From Escherichia coli (GTDB taxonomy: Bacteria > Pseudomonadota > Gammaproteobacteria > Enterobacterales > Enterobacteriaceae), in assembly GCF_003991155.1 (NCBI RefSeq), contig NZ_CP031293.1: 64,000 nucleotides of DNA; one strand, given 5' to 3'. The notes under the pieces are model-generated. The model did not search any database. It saw nothing but the letters and a program-made list of their open reading frames with translations, and was not told the DNA's origin. This document shows positions 19,351 to 25,121 of the stretch, piece by piece. Every line of letters starts with the position of its first letter. The first letter of the stretch is position 1. Made by a program: the position numbers and the translations under genes.

Positions 19351-20787
19351 TCAGCGTTTGTAACCTCCGCCCAGCGCACCGGTGAGTTGAATGGAGGCAT
19401 CCAGCCACTGCCCTTGCAATAACAGGCCATTGGCCCGCTCACGCAGCGCGGGGATTCTGGCTTCGCTGACGCGGGAACCAGCAATGATGCCCGCGTTAAA
19501 GCGCGCCTGCGCAAGACCTACCACACGCAAGGCATCGTGCTCAATTTGCGCCTGATGCTGGTTTTTCTCCGCCAGTGTCTGAACCTGGCTGGCCGCCCGC
19601 GCCACGTCATTTACCGCTTCAACCACCGCTTTGTTGTAGCTGGCGATAGACAAGTTGCTTTCGGCTTTTGCGATATCGAGATTGGCGTTAAGACGACCAC
19701 TATCGAAAATGGGTAGCGTCAGGCCTGCCGTAACGCCCATTTGCTGCGCGGAATGACGGAACAGATCGCTTAAGTGCAACGCATCCTGTTGCAGAAAGGC
19801 CATCAGGTTGATGTCAGGATAAAATGCCGCTTTTGCCGCATCAATAGTGCTTAACGATGACTCAACGTACCAGTGCGCCGCCTGCAAATCTGCCCGCCGG
19901 GCCAGTAAGGAGTACCCGAGTTCATCAGGAAGCTGACTTGCCACTTTCGGCAACGCGACCGGTTTAAGCTTCAATGACTTTGTCTGGTGGTTGGTGAGCG
20001 CACTTAACCGTGCCTCAATAATTTTCATTTTCCCCGCGACATCGTTGAGCTGCTGCCGGGTTTTGCTGGCATTAATATCGGTTTCCACACCTTCAACTGA
20101 AGAAGTAATCCCGTTCTGATATAGCTGGCGATCGGTCGCGATAATGGTGTTCTGCTCTTTTTCGATTTGCTGCAAGACCGTGTTTAACGCCGCCTGGGTT
20201 TGCCACTCCCAGTACAGGCGGGCTACGCTGCCAGCCAGCAATTGGCAGGTTTGCTCGCGTTCCGCCGCCCGTGCTTTAACCGTACCGAGGCGAGCAGTAA
20301 CCTCCGCCCGATTCTTTCCCCAGATATCGAGATGCCAGCCCGCCGTTAAGCCAAAAGTACCGTTGGTGTACCACGGACCGGTCGTACCTGCGGCAGGATC
20401 GTTCAGAGCAAACGGCCCCATTAACCCTTCTGCAGACATTTTTTGCCGCTCCATATCCGCAGAAAAGTCGATCTGCGGACCATCCTGAGTGGCAACTGCC
20501 TTCGCCTGGGCTTCAGCCAGCTGAATGCGCTGTTCAGCCACCTGCATATCCGGTGCGTTCTGTAGTGCATTGTTAATTAATGAAGTGAGTTGATTATCGT
20601 GATACTCCAGCCACCATTGGCTGTCTGGCCAACCATTTTTCAGCGCCGTGGGTAATGCGGTGTCAACTTGTGCCGCGGGTGTTTGCTGGCTTAACGCCTG
20701 GCGGGTTTCATGCATAGGCGCACACCCGGCCAGCATCAGTAACAGCGGAAAACAGGCGATGGCTGGATAAAAAGAATCACGATTCAT
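19351..20787 (-). CDS. mdtQ: outer-membrane efflux lipoprotein MdtQ (YohG), apparently intact
   Basis: Single 478-aa ORF from MNRDSFYPAIACFPLLLMLAGC (lipobox); OMF/TolC-like. Confidence 0.8.
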   Translation of the reverse strand: MNRDSFYPAIACFPLLLMLAGCAPMHETRQALSQQTPAAQVDTALPTALKNGWPDSQWWLEYHDNQLTSLINNALQNAPDMQVAEQRIQLAEAQAKAVATQDGPQIDFSADMERQKMSAEGLMGPFALNDPAAGTTGPWYTNGTFGLTAGWHLDIWGKNRAEVTARLGTVKARAAEREQTCQLLAGSVARLYWEWQTQAALNTVLQQIEKEQNTIIATDRQLYQNGITSSVEGVETDINASKTRQQLNDVAGKMKIIEARLSALTNHQTKSLKLKPVALPKVASQLPDELGYSLLARRADLQAAHWYVESSLSTIDAAKAAFYPDINLMAFLQQDALHLSDLFRHSAQQMGVTAGLTLPIFDSGRLNANLDIAKAESNLSIASYNKAVVEAVNDVARAASQVQTLAEKNQHQAQIEHDALRVVGLAQARFNAGIIAGSRVSEARIPALRERANGLLLQGQWLDASIQLTGALGGGYKR

Positions 20788-21010
20788 GGGGGAATAATCA
20801 GGTAAGAAAAGGTGCGCGGAGATTACCGTGTGTTGCGATATATTTTTTAGTTTCGCGTGGCAATACATCAGTAGCAATAAAACGACATATCCAGAAAAAT
20901 ATACACTAAGTGAATGATATCTTCCGATTTATCTTAATCGTTTATGGATAACGGCAAAGGGCTTCGTTTTTTCCTATACTTATTCAGCACTCACAAATAA
21001 AGGAACGCCA

Positions 21011-21094
21011 ATGAAAATTATACTCTGGGCTGTATTGATTATTTTCCTGATTGGGCTACTGGTGGTGACTGGCGTATTTAAGATGATATTTTAA
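21011..21094 (+). CDS. yohP: small membrane protein YohP (27 aa)
   Basis: Not in ORF track; ATG at 21011, encodes MKIILWAVLIIFLIGLLVVTGVFKMIF. Confidence 0.75.
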   Translation: MKIILWAVLIIFLIGLLVVTGVFKMIF

Positions 21095-21595
21095 AATTAA
21101 TTAATGTCATCAGGTCCGAAAATAACGAGAATAGTTCAGTCTCTCATCCTGTTGCGCTCCTGTCATGTGCATTGCTTCATATCATCACTGGCGCAAGGAG
21201 CGCGCAGGGGGCGGCCAGTCGCCGTCGCCCCCTGCACCCCCGGGCTCTGGCGAACAAAATCGCCGCTGCGCGGTACCCTCGGCTTATCCCTTGCTGCTAC
21301 CGGGTCGGGCGCGAGGTAACATATATGGACGCTCCCGGAATGCAATGCTTTCTTCAGTTATGTAATAAAACGGGTAGGTGCAGCCATATATCCGGTTTCT
21401 GATGGGATTTTTATCCCGAACCATGATGAAATCCGCCAGGCAGGTACCAATCATCCTCTACGGGCTAACTTGCCCTTGTTACCTCTCGGTGTATCCTGCC
21501 TGCGGTCTTACCTGTTTTGCCATCTTCTGAAGTCACCTGCACCTCCCAGGACGTTAACTTTTTTTCAGCACCTCGTCAGATTGACTGACCTTGTG

Positions 21596-22560
21596 TCAGG
21601 CGAGCTGCCGAGGTTGATATTCAGTATTGTGTGACAACATTGACCACATGATCCTCGCTGTTTTTGCCGCCATGGCGACAACAGCTACATTGTAGTGCTT
21701 CCGCTCAAGGAGTCCCTGAAGCCAGGAATTCTCCTCAACCGCGCCGTTTCGGTTGACCCAGGCGGTAAGTGCGCGTGCGCCGTGAACCAGCAGGTATCGG
21801 AAATATCCATCTCCACGTTTGCTGATCCCTCCCAGTTGCTGTTTCCCGCCGCTGGAATGTTCCTTTGGTGTCAGCCCCAGCCATGAAGCGAACTGCTTTG
21901 CGGTACTGAATTGTCGGGCATTACCCACTGCTGCTACCACATAAGTGGCCGTTAGCATGCCAACCCCCGGGATCTTGGCCATTCTCTGGCAGGCTTCCTG
22001 CGTTCTATACCAGGAGGCCAGAGCTTCTTCTACCTGTTTAACTTGTTCTTCAAGTTCCCGGATATGTTTAGACTGTCTGTAGATGCTGGTTCTGACAAAG
22101 GGAGATAAACCATTTTCGCCATCCTCCAGAATGGCTGGCAGCTCACGTGTTAAATGGCTTTGTCCGGCCGCAATCGTAATACCAAACTCAGCAAGTGTGG
22201 CTCTTAAACTATTGGCACAGGCAATCCGCTCACGGATAAGTATTCCCCGTTCAGTGTGTAACGCTAAAACGGCCTGCTGCTCTTCGGTTTTTATCTGAAC
22301 AAAACGCATATTCGGACGGGTTACCGCTTCGCAGATTGCTTCAGCATCTGCTGCATCCGTCTTGTTCGTTTTCACATAAGGCTTCACATACTGCGGAGGT
22401 ATGAGTTTTACCTCATGACCATAGCGGGTGAATAATCGCGCAAAATAATGACTGGATGAGCAGGCTTCCATGCCAATCAGACAAGGTTCCAGTTGAATCA
22501 CAAACTGAACAAACTTAGCCCGGGTGAGCTTTTTACGCAAAATAGTATGGCCTTCATGAT
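21596..22560 (-). pseudogene. IS110-family transposase, C-terminal ~320 codons (gene split by IS3 insertion)
   Basis: Matches IS1111/IS5075-type transposases (LIGMEACSSSHYF, VKTNKTDAADAEAICEA, LGGISKRGDGYFR). The first 16 residues of the ORF-track entry are read from the IS3 left inverted repeat and are artefactual. Confidence 0.8.
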
Positions 22561-23810
<1,250 letters not shown>

Positions 23811-23818
23811 CCACTACA

Positions 23819-23882
23819 GATCGACACCATGAAGCTGAAAAACGTTCTTTGCCAGGTCGATACCAAGAGTTGATACTTTCAT
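23819..23882 (-). pseudogene. IS110-family transposase, N-terminal 21 codons
   Basis: Minus-strand translation gives MKVSTLGIDLAKNVFQLHGVD, which joins in frame to HEGHTILRKK... once the IS3 and one GAT copy are removed. Confidence 0.75.
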
Positions 23883-24221
23883 GTGGACGCTCCTAATTTT
23901 TCAGGACGTATTGCAACGATCCAGTCTGGTACTTTGATACCGTAAAATCTGGAGCGTCCATCTCATTATCCCTGTAAAACGCGCCCTCAGCCCACATCCA
24001 TGTGGGCTGCCCCGCCCTTCAGGGAACGCCTCGGCGATTTTGACGCCACCAACACCGGTGCGGTTTGTAATTAAAGCGCAAGAACATCTTTAAATGAAAA
24101 CGAATACTCTACTGCTCCTTATGCATAACATTTCCTTTTAATTGCAACTTTACTCGTCCTTCCGCTTTCAGTAGTGTGTCATCGCGCATTTCGACTTCAT
24201 CTTTGCAAGGACTGGGTTTTC

Positions 24222-25121
24222 ATGTTTTCTGGGCTGTTAATCATTCTGGTTCCCCTGATTGTGGGTTACCTCATTCCGCTTCGCCAAAAAGCTGCATTAA
24301 GAGTTATTAATCAGCTATTAAGCTGGATGGTTTACCTTATTCTCTTTTTTATGGGTATCAGTCTGGCGTTTCTCGATAACCTCGCCAGTAACCTGTTGGC
24401 GATTCTGCATTATTCTGCTGTCAGTATTACCGTTATTTTACTGTGTAATATTGCCGCCCTGATGTGGCTGGAGCGCGGCCTGCCATGGCGCAACCACCAT
24501 CATCAAGAAAAACTCCCGTCGCGTATTGCGATGGCGCTGGAGTCGCTAAAACTGTGCGGCGTAGTAGTGATTGGTTTTGCCATTGGCCTGAGTGGACTGG
24601 CTTTCTTACAACATGCGACCGAAGCCAGTGAATACACCTTAATTCTGCTACTTTTCCTCGTCGGTATTCAGTTGCGCAATAATGGCATGACCTTAAAGCA
24701 GATTGTCCTTAATCGCCGGGGAATGATTGTCGCCGTGGTGGTGGTTGCCAGTTCATTAATTGGTGGTTTAATTAACGCCTTTATTCTTGATCTTCCCATC
24801 AATACCGCGCTGGCAATGGCCTCCGGTTTCGGCTGGTATTCTCTTTCCGGTATTTTATTGACCGAATCTTTTGGTCCGGTAATCGGGAGCGCGGCGTTTT
24901 TTAATGATCTGGCCCGTGAGCTGATTGCTATTATGTTGATCCCTGGGCTGATTCGCCGTAGCCGCTCGACTGCACTGGGCTTATGTGGTGCGACGTCGAT
25001 GGATTTCACCCTGCCCGTTCTTCAACGTACTGGCGGGCTGGATATGGTCCCGGCGGCGATTGTTCACGGTTTTATTCTTAGCCTGTTAGTGCCGATCCTC
25101 ATCGCCTTTTTCTCTGCATAA
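24222..25121 (+). CDS. lysO: lysine exporter LysO (YbjE)
   Basis: 299-aa membrane protein from MFSGLLIILVPLIVGYLIPL. Confidence 0.85.
   Translation: MFSGLLIILVPLIVGYLIPLRQKAALRVINQLLSWMVYLILFFMGISLAFLDNLASNLLAILHYSAVSITVILLCNIAALMWLERGLPWRNHHHQEKLPSRIAMALESLKLCGVVVIGFAIGLSGLAFLQHATEASEYTLILLLFLVGIQLRNNGMTLKQIVLNRRGMIVAVVVVASSLIGGLINAFILDLPINTALAMASGFGWYSLSGILLTESFGPVIGSAAFFNDLARELIAIMLIPGLIRRSRSTALGLCGATSMDFTLPVLQRTGGLDMVPAAIVHGFILSLLVPILIAFFSA

What the first reader, a model, noticed from the sequence alone, without database searches (positions are those of the whole stretch)
21310..21595. Non-coding ~285 bp downstream of the IS110/IS1111-type transposase: candidate guide (bridge/seek) RNA
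IS110-family recombinases have been reported to use an element-encoded non-coding RNA to specify target and donor sites. For IS1111-type elements I recall this RNA lying downstream of the transposase gene. The long non-coding tail here is at that position and is bounded by the subterminal repeat ATGGACGCTCC, whose inverted copy sits near the other end (23952-23962), with a further copy at 23884-23893.
Basis: inference. Interest (0 to 1): 0.55.

Follow-up and report, generated by a model that had tools for sequence, protein, structure and literature searches.

The report
Guide RNA gene of insertion sequence ISEc81

Summary
The window carries, on the minus strand at 21322-23968, a copy of ISEc81, an IS1111-group element of the IS110 family. 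Its transposase gene is split by an IS3-family insertion at 22561-23818.

The 274-nt tail after the stop codon (21322-21595) contains a roughly 180-nt structured RNA at 21373-21550.
- **Structure:** across 14-24 relatives, 94-96% of cells form standard pairs and 25-26 of 39 pairs show compensatory changes. Slid controls pair at 29-46%.
- **Homology:** a covariance model built here hits only this site in the window. It also hits, untrained, the 3' non-coding region of ISEc11 at 131 bits, where a seekRNA has been shown experimentally.
- **Guides:** in the columns where ISEc11 carries its published target matches, ISEc81 has GAGGUAACA, a 9/9 complement of the right flank TGTTACCTC. It also has GGAUG, which matches the left flank across the junction. 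Two further segments match the element's own ends.
- **Covariation with DNA:** all four segments track their DNA partners across relatives (0-1 of 20,000 permutations).

Durrant et al. 2024 already list a bridge RNA in the right end of ISEc81, so this is already known. This copy cannot make transposase. Its RNA region is identical to that of intact copies.

The parts
21322..23968 (-). Whole ISEc81 copy. It spans 2,647 bp here; the native element is 1,386 bp once the IS3-family insertion and one copy of its 3-bp duplication are removed.
   Evidence: The ends were set by comparison with an unoccupied site...CAGGG[AT]GTTACC.... The name comes from a near-identical transposase labelled ISEc81 in the source data of Siddiquee 2024.
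21325..21335 (-). Right subterminal inverted repeat (IRR; GGAGCGTCCAT in the element's orientation). It is followed by a 3-nt terminal extension at 21322-21324.
23951..23961 (-). Left subterminal inverted repeat (IRL; ATGGACGCTCC in the element's orientation). It is preceded by the 7-nt terminal extension TAATGAG at 23962-23968.
23883..23893 (-). Third copy of the repeat, inverted relative to IRL (GGAGCGTCCAC). It overlaps the Shine-Dalgarno AGGAG just before the start codon and can form a 10-bp hairpin with IRL.
   Evidence: It is conserved only in ISEc81 copies and, with 2 mismatches, in relative L010.
23819..23882 (-). 5' fragment of the transposase gene. The start codon is at 23880-23882.
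21596..22560 (-). 3' fragment of the transposase gene, including the stop codon at 21596-21598. Joined to the 5' fragment it gives an intact 341-aa IS110-family DEDD transposase.
22561..23818 (+). IS3-family insertion sequence of 1,258 bp that splits the transposase gene. Its 3-bp target duplication GAT lies at 22558-22560 and 23819-23821.
   Evidence: NF033516. An Rfam isrC match lies at 22629-22751.
21322..21595 (-). 3' non-coding region (right end) of ISEc81, 274 nt.
   Evidence: The single-sequence fold has z = -2.82.
21373..21550 (-). Conserved structured RNA, equivalent to the long seekRNA or bridge RNA. It has eight helices and 39 base pairs.
   Evidence: The covariance model scores 140.8 bits here, with no other credible hit in the window (next 7.8 bits, E=0.85). 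Covariation. Projection onto this copy.
21432..21515 (-). Target-binding domain. It is homologous to the 82-nt ISEc11 seekRNA (ISEc11 nt 1253-1334).
21477..21485 (-). T guide (RTG-like), GAGGUAACA. [quoted passage not shown]
21452..21458 (-). B guide (LTG-like), GAGGAUG. GGAUG equals the top strand GGA|TG across the insertion point, giving 5 Watson-Crick pairs with the bottom strand, plus one wobble and one mismatch.
21462..21475 (-). Hairpin GGGC-AAGUUA-GCCC (helix 6) between the T and B guides.
21426..21432 (-). Segment AUUUCAU (RDG-like), complementary to left-end nt 3-9 ATGAGAT with one G-U pair. It overlaps the 3' strand of helix 2.
21384..21391 (-). Segment AUAUAUGG (LDG-like). It equals the joined-ends sequence ATATA|T, then two G-T wobbles.
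21340..21345 (-). TTGCAT, a candidate -35 hexamer. When the ends are joined in a circle it sits 16 nt upstream of a TATAAT made from the last 2 nt of the right end and the first 4 nt of the left end.
   Evidence: Read from the sequence. A junction promoter of this kind is reported for ISEc11 in PMC11187229.
21313..21321 (-). Right half of the target site (TGTTACCTC in the element's orientation), in the flanking repeat.
23969..23982 (-). Left half of the target site (GCGTTTTACAGGGA in the element's orientation), in the flanking repeat.

Best explanation
The tail is the guide-RNA gene of ISEc81, an IS1111-group insertion sequence.

**What the RNA looks like (shown here).** The RNA is read from the minus strand, probably as the 3' part of the transposase transcript (inferred from ISEc11). 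It folds into a conserved scaffold. An internal loop presents two short guides either side of a small hairpin.
- The first, GAGGUAACA, pairs with the top strand just right of the insertion point.
- The second, GGAUG plus a wobble, pairs with the bottom strand just left of the insertion point, and the two overlap there.
- Their order is the reverse of that in the IS621 bridge RNA, as published for IS1111-type seekRNAs.

This specifies the target: the loop of a GGGCGCG/CGCGCCC hairpin inside a roughly 210-bp intergenic repeat of E. coli.

**Recognition of the element's own ends (complementarity shown; role inferred).** The 3' half of the RNA carries two more segments. One is complementary to left-end nt 3-9. 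The other matches the sequence formed when the right and left ends are joined. By analogy with the IS621 donor-binding loop, these would recognise the element's own ends.

**Mechanism (inferred by homology).** The transposase-RNA complex would excise the element as a circle and insert it at the target without a duplication.

**This copy.** It cannot make transposase because of the IS3-family insertion. Its RNA region and both ends are intact and identical to those of active-looking copies. It could therefore only act, or be moved, with transposase from another copy.
For: **Anatomy.** Subterminal repeats, terminal extensions of 7 and 3 nt, and no duplication apart from a 2-nt ambiguity.

**Transposase.** NF033542 'IS110 family RNA-guided transposase' at 359 bits against a cutoff of 140; PF01548 plus PF02371.

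**Structure.**
- RNAalifold gives 39 pairs, 25 of them with compensatory changes.
- 94.1% of cells are paired, against 31-46% when partners are slid, and 0 of 500 shuffles reach the observed values.
- On 24 distinct sequences the figure is 95.6%.
- Conserved G-U pairs (for example 13 of 24 sequences at one pair) fit only the sense strand.

**Covariance model R1.** There is no other credible hit in the window (next 7.8 bits, E=0.85). [quoted passage not shown]

**Link to experiment.** In the aligned columns ISEc11 has CAGUAUUUU and GUGAAAAU. These correspond to its published target GTGAAAATACTG. The published 82-nt seekRNA (ISEc11 nt 1253-1334) maps onto the same domain.

**Guide-to-DNA matches, own element versus other elements.**
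- T guide: 7.9 of 9 against 4.95; 0 of 20,000 permutations.
- B guide: 7.1 against 5.0; 0 of 20,000.
- Left-end segment: 1 of 20,000.
- Junction segment: 0 of 20,000.

**Literature.** ISEc81 is listed with a bridge RNA in its right end. IS1111-type seekRNAs lie downstream of the transposase gene, with T 5' of B.

**Integrity of this copy.** The non-coding region is identical in intact copies L003 and L042.
Against: - There are no expression, binding or transposition data for ISEc81.
- Rfam 15 gave no match in the region, so family assignment rests on a model built here and on published tables.
- The B guide of ISEc81 is weak: 5 Watson-Crick pairs, one wobble and one mismatch out of 7.
- No promoter-like or terminator-like site lies in the tail. 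In this copy the upstream gene is interrupted by 1.26 kb of foreign DNA in the opposite orientation, so the RNA may be poorly made here.
- For ISEc11 the 82-nt short RNA, which lacks the two end-matching segments, was reported sufficient for transposition, and the role of the long RNA is stated to be unknown. The donor-binding role of the 3' half is therefore inferred only.
- The left-end-matching segment overlaps a covarying RNA helix (helix 2). Both pairings cannot exist at once.
- The relatives are related by descent, so the shuffle and permutation counts overstate significance somewhat.
Confidence: 0.88

Rival explanations
1. The RNA is real but acts only as a target seeker through its central roughly 84-nt domain. 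The two end-matching segments in the 3' half are not donor guides; the transposase protein recognises the ends through the subterminal repeats.
For: Siddiquee et al. report that the 82-nt ISEc11 seekRNA suffices for transposition and that the role of the long RNA is unknown. The left-end-matching segment lies inside helix 2, which is itself supported by covariation.
Against: Both segments track differences in the left and right ends across relatives. Examples are AUCUUAU with ATAAGAT, AUGUCAU with ATGACAT, AUUACAU with ATGTAAT in ISEc11, and AUACAAAA, AUAUAGAA and AUGUAU with the matching junctions. Only 1 and 0 of 20,000 permutations reach the observed totals. [quoted passage not shown]
Confidence: 0.25
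2. The conserved tail works as DNA, not RNA: it provides transposase-binding sites or a single-stranded DNA fold at the right end.
For: The tail contains the right subterminal repeat and a conserved TTGC motif next to it. No expression data exist for ISEc81.
Against: Frequent conserved G-U pairs would be C-A mismatches on the other strand, and such pairs are weak in DNA. The homologous ISEc11 region yields transposase-bound RNA and complements in trans when transcribed from a separate plasmid. The guide segments match the flanking target, which a cis DNA site has no reason to do.
Confidence: 0.04
3. In this particular copy the tail is an inert relic, neither transcribed nor used, because the element was killed by the IS3-family insertion.
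For: The transposase gene is split. No promoter-like site lies in or just upstream of the tail. The inserted element lies in the opposite orientation, between the left end and the tail.
Against: The tail is base-for-base identical to that of intact copies. Strains of this lineage carry an intact ISEc81 elsewhere, so RNA and transposase could be supplied in trans, and both ends of this copy are intact. This concerns the copy's present activity, not what the sequence is.
Confidence: 0.4

Closest known systems
ISEc11 seekRNA (IS1111 family; Siddiquee et al. 2024, PMC11187229)
   Same: - It lies in the 3' non-coding region on the sense strand.
- It shares the scaffold: the model built without ISEc11 scores it 131 bits full length.
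- The T guide, then a hairpin, then the B guide sit in the same alignment columns.
- Subterminal repeats with short terminal extensions are present, as is a TTGC -35-like motif next to the right repeat.
   Different: - The transposases are distant: about 30-40% identity between ISEc81 or ISEc11 and other family members in the paper's source table.
- The guides and target differ: GTGAAAATACTG for ISEc11, the hairpin loop ACAGGGA|TGTTACCTC for ISEc81.
- The T/B overlap is 1-2 nt instead of 4.
- The terminal extensions total 10 nt instead of 9.
- ISEc81 has not been tested experimentally.
IS621 bridge RNA (IS110 group; Durrant et al. 2024, PMC11208160; Hiraizumi et al. 2024)
   Same: - One RNA carries short segments that pair with staggered stretches of both strands of the target.
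- It also carries segments matching the element's joined ends, and the guides overlap at the crossover point.
- The target guides sit in an internal loop closed by a distal hairpin.
- The guide lengths are alike: 8-9 nt plus 4-7 nt in IS621, 9 plus 5-7 nt here.
   Different: - The RNA lies in the right end after the gene, not in the left end before it.
- The guide order is reversed: the top-strand guide is 5'.
- The end-matching segments lie in a multi-helix junction rather than a simple internal loop.
- The subterminal repeats are long (11 nt).
- No sequence homology to IS621 was tested or claimed.
ISEc81 entry in ISfinder and its bridge-RNA call in Durrant 2024, Supplementary Table 5
   Same: It is the same element. 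The transposase is near-identical: one difference was seen in the N-terminal passage and a few more in the full-length printouts. The table records the group as IS1111 and 'Detected Bridge RNA End' as RE.
   Different: The table gives only the end in which a bridge RNA was detected. The guide assignments, the target repeat and the state of this copy were worked out here.

Membership tests
IS1111 group of the IS110 family | DEDD (RuvC-like) transposase with PF01548 and PF02371 domains | tested here: met
   NF033542 at 359 bits (cutoff 140); PF01548 at 1e-14; PF02371 at 4e-24. These were run on the gene rejoined across the IS3-family insertion.
IS1111 group of the IS110 family | Subterminal inverted repeats of 7-17 bp, set in from the ends by short extensions | tested here: met
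   A perfect 11-bp repeat. Comparison with an empty site gives 7 nt outside it on the left and 3 nt on the right, with a 2-nt ambiguity.
IS1111 group of the IS110 family | Long non-coding region downstream of the transposase gene and a short left end | tested here: met
   274 nt downstream against 86 nt upstream. Relatives have 253-322 nt downstream.
IS1111 group of the IS110 family | C-terminal GL-P----S(t)G motif | tested here: met
   GLTPKEHSSG is read directly in the translated protein. The motif is as stated in PMC11187229.
IS1111 group of the IS110 family | One specific target site and orientation, with no target duplication | tested here: met
   The copies examined (the window; L003 in E. 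coli; L006, L007 and L009 in Kluyvera) lie at the same position of the same repeat. L042 lies between dusC and aqpZ, the two loci that carry this repeat; its flank sequence was not aligned.
IS1111 group of the IS110 family | Circular intermediate whose joined ends form a promoter | not testable with these tools
   In sequence only: joining the ends gives TTGCAT, 16 nt, then TATAAT. Circle formation itself needs an experiment.
IS1111-type seekRNA / bridge RNA | Conserved secondary structure supported by covariation | tested here: met
   39 pairs, 25-26 with changes on both sides; 94-96% paired against 29-46% in slid controls; 0 of 500 shuffles.
IS1111-type seekRNA / bridge RNA | Homology to an experimentally shown seekRNA | tested here: met
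   Model R1, built without ISEc11, hits the ISEc11 3' region full length at 131.1 bits, E = 3e-35. This overlaps the essential nt 1170-1374 and contains the 82-nt RNA at 1253-1334.
IS1111-type seekRNA / bridge RNA | Top-strand match (T) 5' of bottom-strand match (B), overlapping at the insertion point | tested here: met
   T is GAGGUAACA, 9 of 9. B is GGAUG, 5 Watson-Crick pairs plus one wobble and one mismatch. The order is T, hairpin, B, with a 1-2 nt overlap. B is weak.
IS1111-type seekRNA / bridge RNA | Guides change with the target in relatives (natural reprogramming) | tested here: met
   Own-versus-other scores with 0 of 20,000 permutations for both T and B. For example, L017, L020 and L026 share a scaffold but have different guides and flanks.
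IS1111-type seekRNA / bridge RNA | Segments that recognise the element's own ends (donor) | tested here: inconclusive
   Complementarity and covariation are present. Necessity is in doubt, because the short ISEc11 RNA suffices, and one segment overlaps helix 2.
IS1111-type seekRNA / bridge RNA | RNA is made, binds the transposase, and is required for movement | not testable with these tools
   This needs RNA sequencing, pull-down and transposition assays.
IS1111-type seekRNA / bridge RNA | Match to a curated RNA family model | tested here: not met
   A permissive Rfam 15 scan of 20500-24500 gave no match in the tail. Nothing in that library reached the threshold. Durrant's models are not available here.
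IS621-type bridge RNA (IS110 group) | RNA encoded in the left end upstream of the recombinase, with the bottom-strand guide 5' of the top-strand guide | tested here: not met
   The RNA is in the right end and the guide order is reversed. The features are as stated in PMC11208160. The RNA works like a bridge RNA but is not of the IS621 type.

The most novel reading that the evidence does not exclude
The 3' half of the long RNA is a donor-recognition domain that works as a switch. The strand complementary to left-end nt 3-9 is held in helix 2 by an RNA copy of the left-end sequence, and is released, or both strands are used, when the element's end is bound. Three-way covariation (RNA 5' strand, RNA 3' strand, DNA left end) in L029/L038 and L030 is compatible with this. 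If so, it would give the 'long seekRNA', whose function is stated to be unknown, a role.

A second reading is not excluded. The roughly 1.33-Mb inversion that joins yohP to lysO through this element might have been made by the RNA-guided recombinase rather than by homologous recombination.
Probability: 0.15. Interest if true: 0.55.

Novelty: already known. Interest (0 to 1): 0.22.

Why it matters
It confirms that a reader without tools can spot an RNA-guided transposon from raw sequence, and it provides a worked guide map for ISEc81: four segments, the target and the ends.

For biology it adds little. The class was described in 2024, and ISEc81 was already flagged as carrying a bridge RNA in its right end.

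Two modest points go beyond that.
- The comparative data support a donor-recognition role for the 3' half of IS1111-type long RNAs, a role the experimental paper left open.
- Two copies of this element mark the endpoints of a large chromosomal inversion in an E. coli lineage.

Tried and rejected
- **Rfam 15 permissive scan.** The only real hit was isrC, inside the IS3-family insertion. Nothing matched in the tail.
- **Promoter and terminator scan of 21250-22000.** It found none, so there is no evidence for an independent RNA gene with its own promoter.
- **Single-sequence MFE fold.** It is significant (z = -2.82), but it differs in detail from the comparative structure, so I did not use it for the anatomy.
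- **Automatic search for the longest inverted repeat.** It picked spurious repeats in L003, L014, L016, L025 and L027. I used only loci with the ATGGAC-type repeat and corrected L018 by one base.
- **Idea that transcripts from the junction promoter escape the left-end hairpin that covers the ribosome-binding site.** This was weakened: a transcript starting inside the repeat still folds a 7-bp version, and the hairpin is absent from most relatives.
- **Literature search for ISEc81.** It is mentioned only in lists of mobile elements. No IS1111-type structure paper was found.
- **ISYen1 and ISEch3.** These are the closest named relatives, but the genome scan did not recover them, so intermediates at 60-90% identity are missing.

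Full report
**Observation**

The 11-mer ATGGACGCTCC occurs exactly once on the plus strand (21325-21335) and once as its reverse complement (23951-23961). A third copy matching 10 of 11 bases lies at 23883-23893. No other match with at most one mismatch exists on either strand of the 64-kb window.

The large ORF on the minus strand ends with a stop codon at 21596-21598. Everything from there to the repeat lacks a conserved reading frame. Kluyvera copies of the same element carry single-base indels in it.

**What the element is**

The window is E. coli chromosome. The minus-strand ORF lacks its first 21 codons. They lie at 23882-23822, on the far side of a 1,258-bp IS3-family element (22561-23818, plus strand). 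That element has imperfect terminal inverted repeats and a 3-bp duplication, GAT.

Removing the insertion restores a 341-aa protein. It scores 359 bits on NCBIfam NF033542, 'IS110 family RNA-guided transposase', against a cutoff of 140. It contains Pfam PF01548 and PF02371. The protein is nearly identical to the one labelled ISEc81 in the source data of Siddiquee et al. 2024.

Comparison with an unoccupied copy of the flanking sequence (copA-ybaP spacer, L004) gives the empty site ...TTTTACAGGG[AT]GTTACCTCGCGCCC.... The element therefore runs from 23968 to 21322. It has 7 nt (TAATGAG) outside the left repeat and 3 nt (ATA) outside the right one, and no duplication beyond a 2-nt ambiguity. The native length is 1,386 bp.

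The left end before the start codon is 86 nt and the right end after the stop is 274 nt. These are the defining features of the IS1111 group as described in PMC11187229 and PMC11208160.

**The tail encodes a conserved structured RNA**

A scan of one genome per species returned 34 loci encoding relatives at 40-97% protein identity. Fourteen had ATGGAC-type subterminal repeats and tails of 253-322 nt. Despite the low protein identity, the tails align well.

RNAalifold predicts 39 pairs in eight helices, 25 of them with compensatory changes. Counting on that alignment gives:
- 94.1% of cells in standard pairs, against 31-46% when the 3' partners are slid by 1-3 columns;
- 0 of 500 shuffles reaching any observed measure.

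A covariance model built from it (R1) has no other credible hit in the window (next 7.8 bits, E=0.85): 21373-21550 on the minus strand, at 140.8 bits. This site was part of the training set.

[quoted passage not shown] On the resulting 24 distinct sequences, 95.6% of cells pair and 26 pairs show compensatory changes. That alignment is fitted to the model, so the counts lean towards the structure.

Conserved G-U pairs fit only the sense strand. All but one of the 39 pairs are standard in the window's own sequence.

**Link to experiment**

ISEc11 is the IS1111-family element for which Siddiquee et al. showed three things: the downstream non-coding region is essential; it yields RNAs of about 82 and 154 nt that co-purify with the transposase; and it can be reprogrammed.

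I fetched an ISEc11 copy from plasmid 55989p. R1, built without it, hits it full length at 131.1 bits, E = 3e-35, starting 46 nt after the stop codon.

In the aligned columns ISEc11 carries CAGUAUUUU, then a hairpin, then GUGAAAAU. These are the complement of AAAATACTG and a copy of GTGAAAAT, which together make the published target GTGAAAATACTG. The published 82-nt seekRNA (ISEc11 nt 1253-1334) maps exactly onto helices 3-6 with the two guides. The homologous ISEc81 segment is 21432-21515.

**Guide map for ISEc81**

In the T columns ISEc81 has GAGGUAACA (21477-21485), a perfect 9-nt complement of the top strand immediately right of the insertion point (TGTTACCTC).

After the hairpin GGGC-AAGUUA-GCCC comes GAGGAUG (21452-21458). 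Within it, GGAUG equals the top strand GGA|TG across the junction. The remaining two positions give one wobble and one mismatch. This guide is short, but it falls within the 4-7 nt reported for the shorter guide of IS621.

Across 11 elements with usable flanks, each RNA's T and B columns pair better with its own flanks than with those of the other elements:
- T: mean 7.9 of 9 for own flanks against 4.95 for others;
- B: mean 7.1 against 5.0;
- 0 of 20,000 permutations reach the observed total in either case.

L017, L020 and L026 share a near-identical scaffold but have different guides and different flanks, which is natural retargeting.

**Segments that match the element's own ends**

Two further single-stranded or partly paired segments track the element's ends.

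*Columns holding AUUCCAU in most relatives* are complementary to left-end nt 3-9. They change with it:

| Element | RNA segment | Left-end nt 3-9 |
|---|---|---|
| L015 | AUGUCAU | ATGACAT |
| L029 | AUCUUAU | ATAAGAT |
| L030 | AUUUCAU | ATGAAAT |
| ISEc11 | AUUACAU | ATGTAAT |
| ISEc81 (21426-21432) | AUUUCAU | ATGAGAT (one G-U pair) |

*Columns holding AUAUAAAA* copy the last five bases of the right end plus the first three of the left end, which is the sequence formed only when the ends are joined. They also change with it:

| RNA segment | Joined ends |
|---|---|
| AUACAAAA | ATACA\|AAA |
| AUAUAGAA | ATATA\|GAA |
| AUGUAU | ATGTA\|T |
| ISEc81: AUAUAUGG (21384-21391) | ATATA\|T, then two G-T wobbles |

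Permutations reaching the observed totals: 1 and 0 of 20,000. The ends are conserved across the family, so the margin is small (6.8 against 6.1, and 7.7 against 6.9).

[quoted passage not shown] Two things count against treating it as proven. Siddiquee et al. report that the short ISEc11 RNA, which lacks both segments, suffices for transposition, and that the role of the long RNA is unknown. And the left-end-matching segment forms the 3' strand of helix 2, which has its own covariation.

**Likely mechanism**

- *Shown here:* the scaffold, the four complementarities and their covariation.

Joining the ends would create TTGCAT, 16 nt, then TATAAT across the junction. The TTGC motif is conserved next to the right repeat in the relatives. 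This matches the junction promoter reported for ISEc11.

**State of this copy**

The transposase gene is broken. The tail has no promoter-like or terminator-like site of its own. The tail is identical, base for base, to that of intact copies (L003, L042), and both ends are intact.

Strain CUVET16-465 carries this same disrupted junction (hit H17). It also carries an intact ISEc81 between dusC and aqpZ. Transposase and RNA could therefore be supplied in trans. Whether this copy's RNA is made is unknown.

**Prior knowledge and verdict**

Durrant et al. 2024, Supplementary Table 5, lists ISEc81 as IS1111 group with 'Detected Bridge RNA End: RE'. RefSeq already names the protein 'IS110 family RNA-guided transposase' in some genomes. 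The searchable literature holds no ISEc81-specific study.

The additions here are the explicit guide map, the target, and comparative support for end recognition by the long RNA.

Noticed in passing
window 21100-21321 and 23969-24100; loci L004, L005, L040: The element sits in an unnamed intergenic repeat of about 210 bp, present in 1-8 copies (median 3) in 5,425 of 5,426 complete E. coli genomes. The insertion point is in the 19-nt loop of a GGGCGCG/CGCGCCC hairpin. K-12 RefSeq carries no annotation for it and Rfam gave no match.
   Followed up: partly
window 20900-24200; L042 (NZ_CP150994.1 1799501-1805834); L005: The two flanks come from loci about 1.3 Mb apart in ordinary E. coli: yohP on one side and lysO on the other. 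The normal arrangement is dusC-repeat-yohP. A strain of this lineage has the reciprocal junction dusC-ISEc81(intact)-aqpZ at 1.80 Mb and yohP-ISEc81::IS3-lysO at 3.13 Mb. This indicates an inversion of about 1.33 Mb between two ISEc81 copies. From K-12 map positions recalled from memory, it is roughly centred on the terminus. Whether it arose by homologous or RNA-guided recombination is unknown.
   Followed up: partly
window 22561-23818 (Rfam hit 22629-22751): An IS3-family element of 1,258 bp splits the ISEc81 transposase gene; the two-ORF layout with a frameshift follows the RefSeq annotation. The Rfam family isrC ('Hfq binding RNA') matches the start of its first ORF at 145 bits. That Rfam family therefore appears to correspond to part of an insertion sequence.
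   Followed up: no
window 23883-23893 with 23951-23961: The third repeat copy is inverted relative to the left repeat and overlaps the ribosome-binding site AGGAG just before the start codon. The left end folds into a 10-bp hairpin that would hide that site (-30 kcal/mol for nt 1-100). The feature is present in ISEc81 and, with 2 mismatches, in L010, but absent from more distant relatives. Its function is unknown; possibilities are a translational brake on read-through transcripts or an extra binding site.
   Followed up: partly
window 21520-21524 with 21425-21429 (helix 2); loci L029, L030, L038, L041: The 5' strand of helix 2 (GAUGG) resembles the left end (ATGG), and its 3' strand is the left-end-complementary segment. 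In L029/L038 (GAUAA / UUAUC / left end ATAAG) and L030 (GAUGA / U / left end ATGAA), RNA strand, RNA partner and DNA end all change together. The covariance-model alignment nonetheless counts helix 2 as 97.4% paired with only 3 unpaired cells among 24 sequences, so the hand-read of only 3 pairs for ISEc11 may reflect register. The segment still matches the left end 7 of 7. No explanation so far accounts for this.
   Followed up: partly
loci L017, L018, L021, L024, L026, L035 (flanks listed): Several distant relatives are inserted a few bases upstream of an ATG, just after a GGAGG- or AGGA-like motif (for example ...ACGGAGG|AACGACATGAAC...). Their guides appear to target the ribosome-binding-site-to-start-codon region of some gene.
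   Followed up: no
locus L014, about 1526-1669: In a Francisellaceae metagenome contig, the last 27 nt of the right end (TGTTGCGAATTCTGGACGGCCCATATA, comprising the -35-like motif, the repeat and the extension) are repeated in tandem at least three and a half times up to the contig end. This could be an assembly artefact or repeated end duplication.
   Followed up: no
loci L006, L007, L009 (Kluyvera genomosp. 3): Three ISEc81 copies at about 97% protein identity sit in the same position of a homologous repeat in Kluyvera. L007 and L009 have earlier stop codons. All guide segments are unchanged, but two substitutions weaken helix 1 without compensation.
   Followed up: partly
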